Shown: positions 11,768 to 59,394, numbered from the stretch's first letter. The stretch: DNA of 60,591 nucleotides from Candidatus Nealsonbacteria bacterium RIFCSPLOWO2_01_FULL_43_32 (GCA_001819335.1 MHMH01000006.1:1-60591); one strand, 5' to 3'. Notes: generated by a model from the sequence alone, not told the origin. Translations and numbers: made by a program.

Positions 11768-11805
11768 ACCTCCCGAGGGTGCTTATTTAAACACCCTCGG
11801 GAGGT
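11768..11805 (-). promoter_or_regulatory. SD-sequestering hairpin upstream of nusB (family copy)
   Basis: ACCTCCCGAGGGTG (11768-81) pairs with CACCCTCGGGAGGT (11792-805). In the minus sense the 3' arm carries GGAGG 10 nt before the nusB ATG. Confidence 0.75.
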
Positions 11806-11813
11806 GTTTAGGA

Positions 11814-16286: not shown

Positions 16287-16985
16287 TTATGGGAGTCCGA
16301 CTCCCATATTTTTTAATAACTGCTGGACAGATTTAATATTTTTACTATAGTATTTTAACCAATTCATAAAAAATTCTCGATATTTTTCTGGAGTTTCAAA
16401 GAATCTAGATATAAAATTATTATCTATTAGTGAGGGAAAATTCTTGATACCAAGCCAATCTAAATGGCTTGACCATCGGTACTTATTTTCTAAAAAATCC
16501 ATAGCTCTCACAATCTCTGAATTATTCAGACCTGTTTTTTTCCAATCGGGCTTCCAAAGATCTAAAGGATTAGCGTGAATATAACAAATCAATTGAAGAG
16601 CTTGAGTATCATTAACAACGCGAACTTTTTTATATTTCCCCTGGAACAATACTCCGCTTCTTTTATATTTATTATTGAAAAAATTAGTAAAGCCTACTCC
16701 GAACTTTTTGTGATATTTTGATAAGCCATTATCTCTAATCGGGCATAGAAAAAAATGGTAATGGTTTGGCATTAGATTCCAGCATATTAAGTTTACTAGT
16801 TTCTGGCGTTGTTTTTCCAGAAGAAAAGAAGGCGGAGATTTATCAAACCGATAAGCAATATTAACGACATCATCAACGTCATTGAACTCATACGCGTCAT
16901 GAACAGCTCGAAGATAATCCGTATCTTCTAAAAATATCTTTCTTTTTTCTGTTCCTCGGTTATAAGTATGATAAAATTCTAGCAT
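16287..16985 (-). CDS. REP-associated tyrosine transposase-like (IS200/Y1 HUH) protein, paralog 1
   Basis: HUH motif MPNHYHFF and catalytic-Tyr motif CYIHANPL. Confidence 0.8.
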   Translation of the reverse strand: MLEFYHTYNRGTEKRKIFLEDTDYLRAVHDAYEFNDVDDVVNIAYRFDKSPPSFLLEKQRQKLVNLICWNLMPNHYHFFLCPIRDNGLSKYHKKFGVGFTNFFNNKYKRSGVLFQGKYKKVRVVNDTQALQLICYIHANPLDLWKPDWKKTGLNNSEIVRAMDFLENKYRWSSHLDWLGIKNFPSLIDNNFISRFFETPEKYREFFMNWLKYYSKNIKSVQQLLKNMGVGLP

Positions 16986-17101: not shown

Positions 17102-18817
17102 ATGAAAATTGAGACCATCAGGCACTCCCTATCGCATTTGATGGCTTACGCCGTTCAGGAATTGTCCCCCAGCGCCAAGTTTGGCATAGGGCCGGCCATT
17201 GAAAACGGCTTTTATTATGATTTTCAGTTTGAAAAGCTCCTGGCTAACGAAGACCTGCCCAAAATTGAGGCTAGAATGAGAGAACTTATTAAACAGAACC
17301 TGGCTTTCAAGAAAAAAACCATTTCTAAAGTTGCAGCTAAAAAACTATTCAAGGGACAGCCATATAAGCTTGAATTGATTAAGGATTTGCCGGGCAGAAC
17401 CGTGACGGTTTATGAAACCGGCTCGTTCTTTGACCTTTGCGCAGGACCTCACGTCAAATCAACCCAAGAAATAACTCTGGATGGCTTTAAGCTGGCTAAA
17501 GTGGCGGGAGCTTATTGGAAAGGTTCGGAAAAAAACCAGATGCTCACCCGCATTTATGGATTCGCTTTCGAAACTAAAAAAGAGCTCGACGATTATCTGG
17601 CCATGCAGGCGGAAGCCGAAAAAAGAGACCACCGCATCTTGGGCCAGAAGCTCGGGCTGTTCATTTTCTCCGACCTGGTAGGCAAGGGCCTGCCCTTATT
17701 TACCGAAAAGGGTTCCATTATCAGAAGAGAGCTGGAGAGATTCGTGATTAATGAAGAAATCAAAAGAGGGTACATGCACGTTTACACCCCTGAGCTGGCC
17801 AAGGTGGCATTGTACAAAACCTCGGGGCATTATCCCTACTATAAAGAGTCCATGTACCCGGTCATGAAGATTGACGAAGAAGAATTTATTTTAAGACCCA
17901 TGACGTGCCCCCACCACTTCCAGCTTTATGCCAGCCAGCCCAGAAGCTATAAAGAATTGCCTTTCAGGGTGGCGGAACTGGCCAAACAATTCAGATACGA
18001 AAAATCGGGCGAATTAACCGGCCTCATCAGGGTCAGGGTTTTTTGCTTGGCCGATGCACATATTATTTGCCAAAAAGACGCAGCGCTCAACGAAATCAAG
18101 GAAGTGTTTGACCTGATTGAATATGTAGCCCAGAGATTGGGGCTGAAAGTCGGGGTTGACTACCGGTACAGGCTCTCTCTGGGCGACAGAAAAGACGGCA
18201 AAAAATATTATAAAGACGACGCAGCTTGGGCATCCGCCGAAAATATTTTAAGAAAGGTGCTGGTTGAGAGAAAATCTCCTTTTTTTGAAGCTAAGAACGA
18301 GGCGGCTTTCTACGGTCCGAAAATCGACGTCCAGATGAAAAACTTTAGCGGCAAGGAAGAGACTGCTTTCACCATCCAATACGATTTTGTCATGCCCAAA
18401 CGCTTCAAGCTTACCTATGTGGATAAAGACGGTCAGGAAAAAGAACCGGTGGTCATCCACCGCTCGTCCATCGGCGCCATTGAAAGGACCATAGCTTTCC
18501 TTTTAGAGCATTACGCCGGCGCACTGCCTTTCTGGCTTTCGCCCGTCCAAGTCTGCGTTATTCCCATCGCCGACCGGCATCTGCCTTACGCTCAAAAGAT
18601 CAAAAATGAACTGGAAGGCTTCCGGGTGGAAATCAGCCAAGAAAATGAAACTCTTGCCAAAAGAATCAGGGAGGCTGAAATGCAAAAAATTCCGTACATC
18701 TTGGTAGTCGGCGACAAAGAGATAGCGCACAACGCGGTCGGCGTAAGAGTCAGGGGCAAAGGCGATGTCGGCACCATGACTTTAGATGAATTTATTAAAA
18801 AATATGCAAGAACCTAA
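17102..18817 (+). CDS. thrS: Threonyl-tRNA synthetase (no N-terminal TGS domain)
   Basis: Starts at the editing-domain HxxxH region (RHSLSHLMA). Class II core and anticodon-binding domain. 571 aa. Confidence 0.9.
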   Translation: MKIETIRHSLSHLMAYAVQELSPSAKFGIGPAIENGFYYDFQFEKLLANEDLPKIEARMRELIKQNLAFKKKTISKVAAKKLFKGQPYKLELIKDLPGRTVTVYETGSFFDLCAGPHVKSTQEITLDGFKLAKVAGAYWKGSEKNQMLTRIYGFAFETKKELDDYLAMQAEAEKRDHRILGQKLGLFIFSDLVGKGLPLFTEKGSIIRRELERFVINEEIKRGYMHVYTPELAKVALYKTSGHYPYYKESMYPVMKIDEEEFILRPMTCPHHFQLYASQPRSYKELPFRVAELAKQFRYEKSGELTGLIRVRVFCLADAHIICQKDAALNEIKEVFDLIEYVAQRLGLKVGVDYRYRLSLGDRKDGKKYYKDDAAWASAENILRKVLVERKSPFFEAKNEAAFYGPKIDVQMKNFSGKEETAFTIQYDFVMPKRFKLTYVDKDGQEKEPVVIHRSSIGAIERTIAFLLEHYAGALPFWLSPVQVCVIPIADRHLPYAQKIKNELEGFRVEISQENETLAKRIREAEMQKIPYILVVGDKEIAHNAVGVRVRGKGDVGTMTLDEFIKKYART

Positions 18818-43386: not shown

Positions 43387-43456
43387 AATTAAAAATCAGA
43401 TGCTCACTCTTTTTCCAATATACCAGAAAGCGGCTGGCCTGTCGAGAAAAAAGTAA

Positions 43457-44223
43457 CTATCGGGGTCGAACCCCGATAGCCTACTCTATGGCGACTTTTT
43501 CGAAATCAGCTAATTCTTTTTTGAATTCTAACCAACTATCTACTGCTTCCTTGCAACCTTTCACCCCGCCCATTGTTTCAGCTAAAAACTCTCGGCTGGT
43601 TAAAGACGGAAAATTTTTAACTCCTAAATAATCTGGATAGCTTGACCACCTGTAATCTCTCGCGAAATTAATTACTTTTTTCGCATCTTCAATTCCTCTT
43701 TCCTTCCAACCAGGAAAGATAATGGCCACCGGATTAGTATGAACGTAAACAAAAATTGTGTAAAGTTGTTTGTCGTTCTCGATATGGACCAACCTGTATT
43801 TTCCTTGGAATAGGTGTCCGACTCTTTTGTGTCTCTGATTATAATAGACTCCGTAACCTCCGCCAATCTTTTTCATAAACTGACTGATTCCGCCATCTCT
43901 TATCTGGCGAAGTAATAGGTGAACATGATTAGGCATTAAACAAAAGGCTAGAATCTCTACCAACATCTCCCTAACTCCCCTCTTATAGCTATCGGGGTCG
44001 GACCCCGTTAGTTTTGATTTTTGGAAGAAACGGAAATTAGAAGAAACGGGGCTTGTGTCATTGAACTCAAATAAATCATGAATCATGCGAAAGTAATCTT
44101 TTTCATCACGAAAAAGCTTCAGATTTTCTACTGTCCGAATAACGGTATGATATATTTCTCCATTAACTAACGGCGGTCTTTTGCTTGGCATATTAGCGTA
44201 TTAGCGGGGTCGGACCCCGATAG
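43457..44223 (-). mobile_element. RAYT/IS200-like unit 2 with cognate hairpins (two flanking plus one internal)
   Basis: CTATCGGGGT-CGA-ACCCCGATAG at 43457-79; CGGGGT-CGG-ACCCCG at 44205-23; internal copy at 43989-44011. Confidence 0.7.
43481..44191 (-). CDS. REP-associated tyrosine transposase-like protein, paralog 2
   Basis: HUH motif MPNHVHLL; Tyr motif VYVHTNPV. Confidence 0.8.
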   Translation of the reverse strand: MPSKRPPLVNGEIYHTVIRTVENLKLFRDEKDYFRMIHDLFEFNDTSPVSSNFRFFQKSKLTGSDPDSYKRGVREMLVEILAFCLMPNHVHLLLRQIRDGGISQFMKKIGGGYGVYYNQRHKRVGHLFQGKYRLVHIENDKQLYTIFVYVHTNPVAIIFPGWKERGIEDAKKVINFARDYRWSSYPDYLGVKNFPSLTSREFLAETMGGVKGCKEAVDSWLEFKKELADFEKVAIE

Positions 44224-44367
44224 TTATATTGTAGTGGGATTTTGGATTAATGTCGAGGAAAAGAAAGGGGTGCCTCGTGCAATATCACGAAACACCTCCA
44301 TTGCTTGATTCCTTGGCCTCATTCTTTATCTTTTAAACTTTGTGCCGATGGCCAGCCGGCAATCTTT

Positions 44368-44514
44368 TCACCGTGGCACTAGTAATGCTAATATGGCCCG
44401 GATCTTGAAGCTGAATGTCAAAGAGTTTTTAGGCATGCCGTCCATAGCAACGGTGTGAGGCCCGCTTCGCTTACCGCCATCCTTCATAAAATATCGCAAT
44501 TCGTAATCACCCAC
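44368..44514 (-). CDS. Candidate 48-aa small ORF with a strong conserved RBS
   Basis: AAGGAGGTGCCAA then GTG. The RBS/start block is shared with 60361. Confidence 0.3.
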   Translation of the reverse strand: MGDYELRYFMKDGGKRSGPHTVAMDGMPKNSLTFSFKIRAILALLVPR

Positions 44515-44566
44515 TTGGCACCTCCTTAATTTTTCTTTACTCTAACAAATTTTAACGAAAAGTCAA

Positions 44567-49859: not shown

Positions 49860-50629
49860 TTGATGGATATCCGATATCCATCAATACACATCAATCTAAA
49901 AATAATCTTTTTATCGAATCGGTATTCTTTTCATAATATCTCAGCCAATCTATGAAAAATTCCCGATACCCCGCCGGCCCGCCAAAAAAGTTAATCAAAA
50001 ATTCATTATTACTAATCAATGACGGGAAATTTTTAATGCCGAGGTAGTCTAAATGGCTAGACCACCGGTATTCCTTCTCTAAAAATTTTAAGGCGCCCTG
50101 AATCTCCAAACTAGATAAACCATTCTCTTTCCAGCCGGGCTTCCATAAATCTAGCGGGTTTGAATGGATATAACAAACCAATTGAGCCATCTGGGTGTCA
50201 TCGACAACTTGAACCTTTTTATATTTTCCCTGGAATAATACCCCACTCCTTTTATATTTGGTATTAAAAAAATTGCTGAAACCTATCCCAAGTTTTTGAT
50301 GGAACCTTGGCAGACCGTTCTCAACCTTCGGAGTAGAAAAAAGGTGATAATGATTGGGCATTAAACACCAAACAATAATATCTATTAACTTGTTTCTTGA
50401 TTTTTCCGCAGAAGTTCCATTGATGGATATCCGATTTCCATCAAATCGCCGATTGAGATTAATAACAGCATCAGTGTCGTTAAATTCGTAAAAATCATGT
50501 ACGCACCGCAAATAATCCGTGCCGTCCATAAATATCTTGCGTTTCTCAACCCCTCGATTATAGGTATGATAAAAAATAGATTCCATTAATAAATTATAAC
50601 ACGGATTGATGGATATCCGATATCCATCA
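49860..50629 (-). mobile_element. RAYT/IS200-like unit 3 with cognate hairpins (two flanking plus one internal)
   Basis: TTGATGGATAT-CCG-ATATCCATCAA at 49860-84, 50607-29 and (1 mismatch) 50420-44. Confidence 0.7.
49891..50586 (-). CDS. REP-associated tyrosine transposase-like protein, paralog 3
   Basis: HUH motif MPNHYHLF; Tyr motif CYIHSNPL. Start moved to MESIFYHTYNRG because the upstream track codons are the hairpin. Confidence 0.8.
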   Translation of the reverse strand: MESIFYHTYNRGVEKRKIFMDGTDYLRCVHDFYEFNDTDAVINLNRRFDGNRISINGTSAEKSRNKLIDIIVWCLMPNHYHLFSTPKVENGLPRFHQKLGIGFSNFFNTKYKRSGVLFQGKYKKVQVVDDTQMAQLVCYIHSNPLDLWKPGWKENGLSSLEIQGALKFLEKEYRWSSHLDYLGIKNFPSLISNNEFLINFFGGPAGYREFFIDWLRYYEKNTDSIKRLFLD

Positions 50630-59336: not shown

Positions 59337-59361
59337 TTTTCTGTTTAGTCCACAAACTTGA

Positions 59362-59394
59362 ATTAGCGGGATCATTTCCCGCTAATTTATTTTA
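59362..59394 (+). terminator. Intrinsic terminator
   Basis: ATTAGCGGGA-TCATT-TCCCGCTAAT followed by TTATTTT. Confidence 0.7.

What the first reader, a model, noticed from the sequence alone, without database searches (positions are those of the whole stretch)
43457..44223. RAYT-like paralog 2: cognate hairpin on both flanks and a third copy inside its own coding sequence
CTATCGGGGT-CG(A/G)-ACCCCGATAG occurs just after the stop (43457-79) and upstream of the start (44205-23). It also occurs in frame within the ORF (43989-44011, encoding SDPDSYKR), in the variable segment before the HUH motif. Paralog 3 has an internal copy at the equivalent position; paralog 1 has none. A transposase carrying its own recognition hairpin in its mRNA or gene could be self-regulating or self-targeting.
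Basis: partly seen in the sequence, partly recalled or inferred. Interest (0 to 1): 0.65.

Follow-up and report, generated by a model that had tools for sequence, protein, structure and literature searches.

The report
Transposase-like gene carrying its own hairpin
A small transposase-like gene of an uncultured groundwater bacterium has the same short DNA palindrome at its promoter, in frame inside its coding sequence and at its stop codon; this layout is the rule across the gene family, and in related genomes the same palindromes also sit in frame inside housekeeping genes.

Summary
The P2 gene (43481-44191, minus strand) has its palindrome at 43457-79 (exact), 43989-44011 (1 mismatch, in frame) and 44201-23 (2 mismatches). 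Chance expectation is 0.

Paralogs P1 and P3 each have a different palindrome of their own. P3 has an internal copy; P1 has none.

This is not a one-off. Of 83 family loci in Patescibacteria and DPANN genomes, 62 show a locus-specific palindrome upstream, inside the ORF and at the stop. The internal copy falls in one loop (41 in a single alignment column). It matches its own flanks at a median 88%, against 54% for other loci.

That loop is disordered in the AlphaFold model. The fold is closest to E. coli RAYT bound to REP DNA.

The upstream copy overlaps the gene's promoter. P2's unit is an insertion between holB and frr.

In related genomes the same palindromes occur as solo copies. Many lie in frame inside housekeeping genes (ThrRS, UvrB, PheT, enolase).

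Best reading: this is a REP/RAYT-like system whose palindromes live in coding loops, including the enzyme's own gene, and are kept alike by copy-replacement. Self-regulation is plausible but untested.

The parts
43481..44191 (-). P2 ORF, 236 aa, a RAYT-like Y1 HUH protein. Family-invariant motifs are HUH (H89-V-H91), YxHxNP (Y149) and YRWSS (aa 180-184).
   Evidence: ORF listed. Pfam PF01797 scores 43.3 bits against a cut-off of 23. Invariant residues. AlphaFold pLDDT 81.9. Best Foldseek hit is 4er8_A, E 3.6e-6.
43457..43479 (.). Downstream copy of the palindrome (exact, 10-bp stem, loop CGA), 1 nt after the stop codon. With the T-run that follows on the gene strand it also looks like an intrinsic terminator. 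It marks the right edge of the inserted unit.
   Evidence: Terminator-like site 43481-43455 plus ACTTTTTTCT. RNA fold -21.3 kcal/mol, z -5.2. Edge defined against empty holB-frr sites.
43989..44011 (.). Internal in-frame copy (1 mismatch) encoding L61-T-G-S-D-P-D-S68. It lies in the loop between helix alpha-1 and the HUH strand.
   Evidence: Residues 54-70 have pLDDT below 50. 62 loci carry an internal copy in this loop, 41 of them in one alignment column.
44201..44223 (.). Upstream copy (2 mismatches). The outer part of its right arm, GCTAAT, matches the hairpin of the positional ortholog L202. It begins 5 nt downstream of the -10 box and ends 9 nt before the ATG.
44228..44256 (-). Promoter-like site of P2: TCGACA-N17-TACAAT. 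The predicted transcription start falls in the first bases of the upstream palindrome.
   Evidence: 10 of 12 consensus matches. The same arrangement is found in orthologs L281 and L202.
43919..43927 (-). Codons 89-91 of P2, the HUH motif (H-V-H).
   Evidence: Invariant in alignments A1 and A2.
49891..50586 (-). Paralog P3 (231 aa from the ATG at 50586). Its own palindrome GATGGATAT-CCG-ATATCCATC lies at 49862-82 (after the stop), 50422-42 (internal, aa ~48-55) and 50608-28 (upstream).
16287..16985 (-). Paralog P1 (232 aa). Its own palindrome TATGGGAGT-CCG-ACTCCCATA lies at 16288-308, where it encodes the last residues MGVGLP plus the stop, and at 17013-33 (upstream). There is no internal copy.

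Best explanation
P2 is a RAYT-like single-strand-DNA nuclease/ligase (Y1 HUH family). The palindrome is taken to be its recognition hairpin. Gene and palindromes form a REPtron-like unit: one copy overlaps the promoter, one sits in frame in a disordered surface loop, and one lies at the stop codon.

The internal copy is a resident member of a family of short (23-31 bp) REP-like palindromes. These tolerate, and in related genomes often occupy, coding sequence, read in a frame that gives a harmless hydrophilic loop.

The three copies stay alike because palindrome cassettes are repeatedly copied over one another. The agent could be the enzyme's cut-and-rejoin activity on hairpins or replication template switching. 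The internal site persists because an existing hairpin in a permissive loop next to the enzyme's own gene keeps being rewritten.

One consequence is that the enzyme can bind its own promoter and ORF, which would allow self-limitation.

Shown: the layout, the covariation, the turnover at the loop, the disordered loop, the overlap with the promoter, the insertion polymorphism, and the solo copies in other genes.

Inferred: that the enzyme binds and cuts these hairpins, the copy-replacement mechanism, and any regulatory effect.
For: Three copies are present against 0 expected. Each of the three window paralogs has its own palindrome.

Of 83 loci, 62 have a locus-specific palindrome upstream, in the loop before HUH and at the stop; 41 internal copies fall in one alignment column. 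The internal copy is 88% identical (median) to its own flanks against 54% to other loci, and its own flank is the best match in 51 of 62. Internal copies are as well formed as upstream ones, with median perfect stems of 10 and 10.5 bp.

Positional orthologs between holB and frr (window, L281 at 85%, L202 at 70%) differ at 5 of 10 stem pairs, with the change present in all copies. The window's upstream copy keeps the ancestral GCTAAT arm.

A gene only 50% identical to P2 (L417) carries the very same palindrome as a perfect triple. Close relatives carry different hairpin classes, or the same class in another frame, in this same loop. The loop orientation differs at random between copies of one locus.

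The encoded loop is disordered. The fold is closest to RAYT-REP 4er8.

A -10 box adjoins the upstream palindrome in 55 of 71 loci.

Solo copies are dispersed, and in two genomes they match a RAYT-like paralog of the same genome. About 30 of ~95 solo copies of the ACGAGAAC class, and 10-11 of ~12 distinct solo sites of P2's own class, lie in frame inside real housekeeping genes.
Against: There is no biochemical or expression evidence. Only assembled contigs were available, and they show no excision or replacement variants.

No solo copy of any of the three palindromes occurs in this 60-kb window, so dispersal in this particular genome is unproven.

A replacement that preserves length has no known enzymatic precedent among Y1 transposases.

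The strict use of one reading frame shows strong selection at the protein level. That could also mean the peptides matter.

Near-universal retention of the internal site fits direct selection for a function (rival 1) equally well.
Confidence: 0.6

Rival explanations
1. Selected autoregulatory circuit at the DNA level. The three palindromes are operators for the gene's own product. The promoter copy represses initiation, the intragenic copy acts as a roadblock or looping partner, and the internal copy is kept by selection for this feedback.
For: The upstream palindrome overlaps the core promoter. In 42 of 71 loci its centre lies at about -28, with a -10 box right after it. In 13 of 71, including P2, it lies just downstream of the -10. 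The internal copy is retained at one site in 62 of 83 loci with stems as good as the upstream copy. Transposase promoters placed inside end sequences are a classical design (established knowledge).
Against: The closest ortholog has lost a foldable internal copy while keeping perfect flanks, and P1 lacks one. The same palindromes persist in housekeeping genes, where no such circuit applies. Turnover of hairpin class and frame in the loop looks like re-insertion rather than conservation of an operator.
Confidence: 0.22
2. RNA-level elements. The hairpins act in the mRNA as a 5' stabiliser or start-site occluder, an internal pause or RNase III site, and a 3' terminator.
For: In P2 the predicted start of transcription lies at the upstream hairpin, and the downstream hairpin followed by a T-run scores as an intrinsic terminator. 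The RNA stems are stable. IS200 is known to use such RNA hairpins (established knowledge).
Against: In 42 of 71 loci the -10 box lies 3' of the upstream palindrome, so that copy would not be transcribed from the gene's own promoter. There is no consistent excess of G:T over A:C mismatches on the sense strand (13 vs 12 in all). Many downstream copies lack a T-run. Random loop orientation and solo copies on either strand of host genes fit a DNA element.
Confidence: 0.08
3. An ordinary IS200-like insertion sequence. The upstream and downstream hairpins are simply its left and right ends, and the internal copy is an alternative end that yields truncated derivatives.
For: The unit is an insertion relative to about 60 genomes with adjacent holB and frr, and its right edge is the end of the downstream hairpin. 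P2-clade genes lie in different genomic contexts. There are several paralogs per genome.
Against: The ends are identical perfect palindromes, not distinct imperfect left and right ends. No near-identical whole-element copies were seen (paralogs are 37-40% identical). The NCBIfam IS200 model scores 17.5 bits against a cut-off of 55. Solo 23-31-bp palindromes without any gene are the dispersed form.
Confidence: 0.08
4. Chance resemblance, or a one-off recent insertion into P2.
For: None beyond the single locus.
Against: Chance expectation is 0.00. The layout recurs, with covariation, in 62 independent loci.
Confidence: 0.01

Closest known systems
REP-associated tyrosine transposases (RAYT / TnpA-REP) with flanking REPs ('REPtron'), e.g. 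E. coli rayT (PDB 4ER8; PMC3333891, PMC3479197, PMC5581495)
   Same: Both have the Y1 HUH fold (best Foldseek hit 4er8_A), with the HUH and YxHxNP / Y-W-SS motifs. In both, the gene is flanked on each side by its cognate palindrome. The palindrome type also occurs as dispersed solo copies that match a paralog of the same genome.
   Different: E. coli rayT has REPs on both flanks but none inside its ORF; here an internal in-frame copy is the family norm. The palindromes here are perfect, 23-31 bp, with an AA/AAT base rather than a 5' GTAG/CGTC tag. Many solo copies are intragenic, not extragenic. There are several divergent paralogs per genome, and presence or absence varies at one site, unlike single-copy vertical inheritance. 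The NCBIfam RAYT model scores 43 bits against a cut-off of 80.
IS200/IS605 TnpA (IS608, ISDra2) and IS200 hairpin control of transposase expression
   Same: Same Y1 HUH superfamily (Pfam PF01797; Foldseek hits 2xo6, 2vjv). Both have hairpins at each end of a unit that contains the gene, and a hairpin next to the start of the gene.
   Different: The palindrome here is identical at both ends, and there is a third copy inside the ORF. No TnpB is present and no multicopy whole elements were seen. The IS200 model threshold is not met (17.5 vs 55 bits).
Rickettsia palindromic elements (RPE), selfish palindromic repeats inserted in frame in protein-coding genes (own knowledge: Ogata et al. 2000; reviewed in PMC10969869)
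   Same: Both are palindromic repeats that reside in frame inside housekeeping genes, in regions that tolerate them, and that are inherited at orthologous sites (PheT site B in 4 genomes).
   Different: The units here are 23-31 bp rather than 100-150 bp. They change protein length by only 0 to +4 aa. They come with an obvious candidate enzyme, whose own gene carries a copy. The hosts are Patescibacteria and DPANN.
Flip/flop terminal palindromes of parvoviruses and template-switch inversion of hairpin loops (own knowledge)
   Same: Identical palindromes whose loop occurs in either orientation among copies, together with an HUH nuclease.
   Different: The elements here are chromosomal and show no sign of a linear replicon. 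The flips may simply result from copying between symmetric arms.

Membership tests
RAYT / TnpA-REP | Y1 HUH nuclease fold with HUH motif and conserved tyrosine motif | tested here: met
   PF01797 scores 43.3 bits against a cut-off of 23. H89-V-H91, Y149-x-H-x-N-P and Y180-R-W-S-S are invariant. Best Foldseek hit is 4er8_A, E 3.6e-6.
RAYT / TnpA-REP | Passes the curated equivalog model NF047646 | tested here: not met
   P2, P1 and P3 score 43.2, 33.3 and 38.2 bits against a cut-off of 80.
RAYT / TnpA-REP | Gene flanked by its cognate palindromic repeat | tested here: met
   Met for P1, P2 and P3 and for most of the 83 loci examined; 58 have both flanking copies scored.
RAYT / TnpA-REP | Cognate repeat dispersed in many extragenic copies in the same genome | tested here: inconclusive
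   There are no extra copies in the 60-kb window, and the source genome is not in the collections. In other genomes solo copies are dispersed and match a paralog of the same genome, but many are intragenic.
RAYT / TnpA-REP | Single copy per genome, vertically inherited | tested here: not met
   There are three paralogs in 60 kb. The unit is present between holB and frr in 3 genomes and absent in about 60. The P2 clade lies in varied contexts.
RAYT / TnpA-REP | REP carries a 5' GTAG or CGTC tetranucleotide (PMC3733652) | tested here: not met
   The palindromes start AA/AAT and end TT/ATT. No GTAG or CGTC is seen at the foot.
IS200/IS605 TnpA | Passes the curated model NF033573 | tested here: not met
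   17.5 bits against a cut-off of 55.
IS200/IS605 TnpA | Distinct imperfect subterminal hairpins at the left and right ends; whole element in several near-identical copies | tested here: not met
   Both ends carry the same palindrome (median within-locus upstream-downstream identity 0.88). The paralogs are 37-40% identical.
In-frame palindromic repeats of the RPE type | Palindromic repeat family found in frame inside functional protein-coding genes | tested here: met
   Found in its own gene. In related genomes found in ThrRS, UvrB, PheT, enolase, MurC-like ligase, MnmA, Pth, YceG and a P-type ATPase.
In-frame palindromic repeats of the RPE type | Unit of about 100-150 bp, in Rickettsia | tested here: not met
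   The unit is 23-31 bp and the hosts are Patescibacteria and DPANN.

The most novel reading that the evidence does not exclude
A family of HUH enzymes in ultra-small bacteria and archaea writes its own 23-31-bp palindrome into permissive coding loops across the proteome and into its own gene. It does so by cassette replacement that roughly preserves length. The self-copy would work as a built-in limiter: excising or rewriting the unit, whose length is not a multiple of three, would frameshift the enzyme. Copies in essential genes cannot be removed without cost and so persist. This would be the first repeat family living inside coding sequence with an identified mobilising enzyme.
Probability: 0.25. 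Interest if true: 0.85.

Novelty: new variant of a known kind. Interest (0 to 1): 0.7.

Why it matters
REP/RAYT systems are described as extragenic repeats served by a single-copy domesticated transposase. Here the repeats are largely intragenic and are read in one frame as short loops of essential proteins. The enzyme's gene almost always contains a copy of its own site, one that co-evolves with the flanking copies.

If the enzyme is shown to act on these hairpins, three things follow. First, there would be a testable mechanism for how palindromic repeats enter and persist inside coding sequence, a question open since the Rickettsia palindromic elements were described. Second, it would be a natural example of concerted evolution between a protein and several copies of its DNA site. 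Third, it would be a source of proteome variation in streamlined CPR and DPANN genomes.

It also matters for annotation. These 8-10-residue inserts and the "transposase" genes are currently unremarked.

Tried and rejected
1. Looking for excision or deletion products in sequencing runs. Only Logan contigs of groundwater and soil metagenomes were available. They showed no variants at P2, only an empty-site contig from a relative about 90% similar.

2. Genome scan with the short core ATCGGGGT-NNN-ACCCCGAT. The pattern was too generic, the hits were unrelated high-GC genomes, and the source genome is not in the collection.

3. Synteny of P2-clade loci L001-L007 with the window. None was found.

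4. PDB sequence search with the family profile. No hit; only the fold comparison worked.

5. G:T versus A:C mismatch bias, to tell RNA-level from DNA-level selection. The numbers were too small and no consistent bias appeared.

6. Homology between the window's 343-bp segment upstream of P2 and the segment downstream of the L202 unit. None.

7. Whether the RAYT-like gene in L272 is cognate to the solo copies of its genome. It is not; its hairpin is different.

8. Literature searches for internal hairpins in RAYT genes or coding-region palindromes in CPR. Nothing was found in the held library.

9. Rejected the idea of a simple 29-nt insertion. Loop and protein lengths differ by only 0 to +4 aa with and without the hairpin.

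Full report
**1. The observation**

The window (44% GC) carries an ORF at 43481-44191 on the minus strand, 236 aa. The pattern CTATCGGGGT-NNN-ACCCCGATAG occurs three times. It is exact at 43457-79, has one mismatch at 43989-44011, and has two mismatches at 44201-23. Shuffles gave 0.00 expected matches, and there is no other copy in 60.6 kb.

The first copy lies 1 nt after the stop. The third ends 9 nt before the ATG.

tblastn finds two paralogs, both on the minus strand: P1 (16287-16985) and P3 (49891-50586), 37-40% identical to P2. Each has a different palindrome of its own:
- P1: TATGGGAGT-CCG-ACTCCCATA at 16288-308, overlapping its last codons and stop, and at 17013-33. No internal copy.
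- P3: GATGGATAT-CCG-ATATCCATC at 49862-82, 50422-42 (internal) and 50608-28.

**2. What the protein is**

- P2 passes Pfam Y1_Tnp (43.3 bits, cut-off 23).
- The NCBIfam RAYT and IS200 equivalog models are hit but stay far below threshold (43 vs 80 bits; 17.5 vs 55 bits).
- HUH (H89-V-H91), Y149-x-H-x-N-P and Y180-R-W-S-S are invariant across 55 relatives.
- An AlphaFold model built on that alignment has pLDDT 81.9.
- The only internal low-confidence stretch is residues 54-70, which is the segment encoded by the internal palindrome. It lies between helix 32-42 and strand 78-85.
- Foldseek ranks E. coli RAYT bound to a REP hairpin (4er8_A, E 3.6e-6) first, followed by the ISDra2 and IS608 TnpA structures.
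- A sequence-profile search of the PDB finds nothing.

**3. The layout is a family trait**

A genome scan found more than 552 loci, almost all in Patescibacteria (CPR) plus a few DPANN archaea; 80 were fetched. For each locus I took perfect hairpins near the gene and searched for near-matches within the gene ±200 nt.

- 62 of 83 loci have a locus-specific palindrome upstream of the start, a copy inside the ORF in the loop before HUH, and usually a third copy at or just after the stop.
- On a protein alignment the internal copies fall in the loop between the EFND helix and the LMPNH strand.
- 41 of them fall in one alignment column and one reading frame.
- The internal copy is 88% identical (median) to its own flanks, against 54% to the flanks of other loci.
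- It is best matched by its own locus in 51 of 62 cases; the exceptions are close relatives.
- Internal copies fold as well as upstream ones (median perfect stem 10 vs 10.5 bp; downstream 13 bp).
- Loci without a detectable internal copy have loops of the same length (median 40 vs 42 aa) and often keep hairpin-type peptides. They therefore hold decayed copies.
- Seven loci have a second internal site, near P2 aa 165, that replaces native residues.
- E. coli rayT has REPs on both flanks but none in the ORF.

**4. Evolution of the three copies**

holB and frr are adjacent (gap 8-70 bp) in about 60 of 80 related genomes. The window, L281 (85% identical protein) and L202 (70%) all carry the unit between these two genes. 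The unit consists of promoter, palindrome, ORF and palindrome, and its right edge is the end of the downstream palindrome.

These positional orthologs have different palindromes:
- Window: CTATCGGGGTC-C-GACCCCGATAG.
- L281: the same stem with the centre base flipped to G, and a decayed internal copy.
- L202: AATTAGCGAGAA-CGT-TTCTCGCTAATT in all three copies.

Five of ten stem pairs differ between the window and L202, and the changes are present in every copy. The window's upstream copy still has the L202-type outer arm, GCTAAT.

Conversely, a gene only 50% identical to P2 (L417) has exactly P2's palindrome as a perfect triple.

Among 55 close relatives the same loop encodes different hairpin classes (LTGSDPDS; TRTVLV). 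It also encodes one class in two frames (TRTVLV vs YENSSRS), with loop lengths of 46-61 aa.

The loop of the palindrome (G/C, A/T, TTGCGAT/ATCGCAA) is oriented at random among the copies of one locus. Identity between copies stops at the ends of the palindrome.

Together these facts point to repeated copying or replacement of palindrome cassettes, in either orientation. They do not fit independent point mutation, and they do not fit a single ancient insertion.

**5. Position relative to signals**

In P2 a promoter-like site, TCGACA-N17-TACAAT, ends 5 nt before the upstream palindrome. The downstream palindrome plus a T-run scores as a terminator, and the frr promoter follows it.

Across the family a -10-like box lies between the upstream palindrome and the ATG in 42 of 71 loci. 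It often ends 6-9 nt before the ATG, which puts the palindrome centre near -28. In 13 of 71, the P2 clade, the box lies just 5' of the palindrome.

The upstream copy therefore overlaps the gene's own promoter. In most loci it would not be part of the transcript, which argues for a DNA-level role. Mismatch types give no strand bias.

**6. The palindromes are not confined to these genes**

A scan for the P2-clade core ACGAGAAC-N-GTTCTCGT found triple sets at RAYT-like genes. It also found about 90 solo copies in low-GC Patescibacteria genomes, several per genome, built as AAT-NNN-core-NNN'-ATT. In two genomes the variable triplet equals that of a paralog of the same genome.

About 30 of ~95 solo copies lie in frame inside long ORFs. 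Pfam identifies the host genes as PheT, enolase, a MurC-like ligase, MnmA, Pth, YceG and a P-type ATPase.

A scan for P2's own palindrome in metagenome contigs found about 12 distinct solo sites. Ten or eleven of them lie inside ORFs, always in the frame that reads LSGSDPDS; a second frame is never used there and the third contains a stop. Pfam confirmed six hosts: ThrRS, UvrB, FtsQ, a DegT aminotransferase, a glycosyltransferase and a phosphoesterase.

The window's own ThrRS lacks the element at that site. Host proteins change in length by only 0 to +4 aa. One PheT site is shared by four genomes.

**7. Interpretation**

The best-supported reading is a REP/RAYT-like system whose palindromes reside largely in coding loops. 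The enzyme's own gene carries one at a permissive, disordered loop. The copies are kept alike by copy-replacement. The internal site persists because a hairpin next to the enzyme's gene is continually rewritten.

Binding of the enzyme to its promoter copy and its ORF copy would give feedback. That remains an inference, and the decay of the internal copy in the closest ortholog shows it is not strictly required.

Rivals, with my confidence in each:
- A selected operator or roadblock circuit: 0.22.
- RNA-level hairpins: 0.08.
- An ordinary IS200-like element: 0.08.
- Chance or a one-off insertion: 0.01, refuted.

**8. Novelty**

Searches of the held literature found no report of internal cognate hairpins in RAYT genes, and none of coding-region palindromic repeats in CPR.

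The system combines features of REP/RAYT and of Rickettsia RPEs. I rate it a new variant of a known kind, with interest 0.7.

Noticed in passing
L282-L401 (e.g. L338:4233, L307:3917, L325:7200, L346:2940, L333:6269, L367:6151): Solo copies of the palindrome AAT-NNN-ACGAGAAC-N-GTTCTCGT-NNN-ATT are dispersed in Patescibacteria genomes. About 30 of ~95 lie in frame inside housekeeping genes (PheT, enolase, MurC-like ligase, MnmA, Pth, YceG, P-type ATPase) and encode YENSSRS or TRTVLV. The third frame was not seen in the 20 hosts translated.
   Followed up: partly
L403-L424 (e.g. L416:8556 ThrRS, L411:1244 UvrB, L403:2060 FtsQ, L415:7462 DegT): P2's own palindrome type occurs at about 12 distinct solo sites in metagenome contigs. 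Ten or eleven lie inside ORFs, always in the frame reading LSGSDPDS. The window's ThrRS (17102-18817) lacks it at the orthologous site.
   Followed up: partly
L417:1319-2130 versus window 43457-44223 and L202:1791-2551: The same 27-nt palindrome goes with RAYT-like genes that are only 50% identical, while the positional ortholog at 70% identity has another palindrome. This suggests palindrome cassettes are taken over between enzyme lineages.
   Followed up: partly
All loci; in the window 43468, 44000 and 44212 (hairpin centres): The centre or loop of the palindrome occurs in either orientation among copies of the same locus and between orthologs (window centre C, L281 centre G). This is a flip/flop pattern.
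   Followed up: partly
L042, L049, L061, L070, L073, L079, L080 (protein position equivalent to P2 aa 165-168): A second recurrent internal hairpin site lies between the NP motif and YRWSS. It replaces the native PEWRERKI-type segment with GGSTS-type peptides, usually shortening it by 4-6 residues.
   Followed up: partly
window 44250-44262 and 43439-43451: A direct repeat, TTTTC(C/T)TCGACA, precedes both the P2 promoter and the frr promoter. TCGACA-N17-TANNNT occurs only at these two places in the whole window. It could be a duplicated -35 region created by the insertion, or something else.
   Followed up: partly
window 44224-44566: A 343-bp segment between holB and the P2 promoter is absent from orthologs L281 and L202. 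It has its own promoter-like site, a strong ribosome-binding site and a 48-aa ORF (44368-44514, minus strand). No homology was found to the segment downstream of the L202 unit.
   Followed up: partly
window 59361-59387: The palindrome AATTAGCGGGA-TCATT-TCCCGCTAATT lies after a small ORF. Its outer 9 bp equal those of L202's hairpin (AATTAGCG.G / C.CGCTAATT). It may be a solo relic of the ancestral P2-type palindrome, or simply a terminator.
   Followed up: no
window 35537-35580 and 11788-11810: A 20-bp-stem perfect palindrome (TACCTCCCGAGGGTGTTTAG-GTAT-...) shares the sequence AAACACCCTCGGGAGG with a second hairpin 24 kb away. Overall the window has 43 perfect hairpins with stems of 8 bp or more, against about 5.7 in shuffles.
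   Followed up: no
L408:11623, L409:408, L416:8556, L417:1319: In several solo copies the palindrome extends 3-5 bp beyond the conserved AA...TT into sequence specific to that site (e.g. CCCCAA...TTGGGG, AACTGAA...TTCAGTT). This is more than chance pairing would give and hints at how copies are made.
   Followed up: no
window 16288-16308: In P1 the downstream palindrome is read through: it supplies the last six residues (MGVGLP) and the stop codon. L036, L038, L040 and L080 have similar C-terminal overlaps.
   Followed up: no
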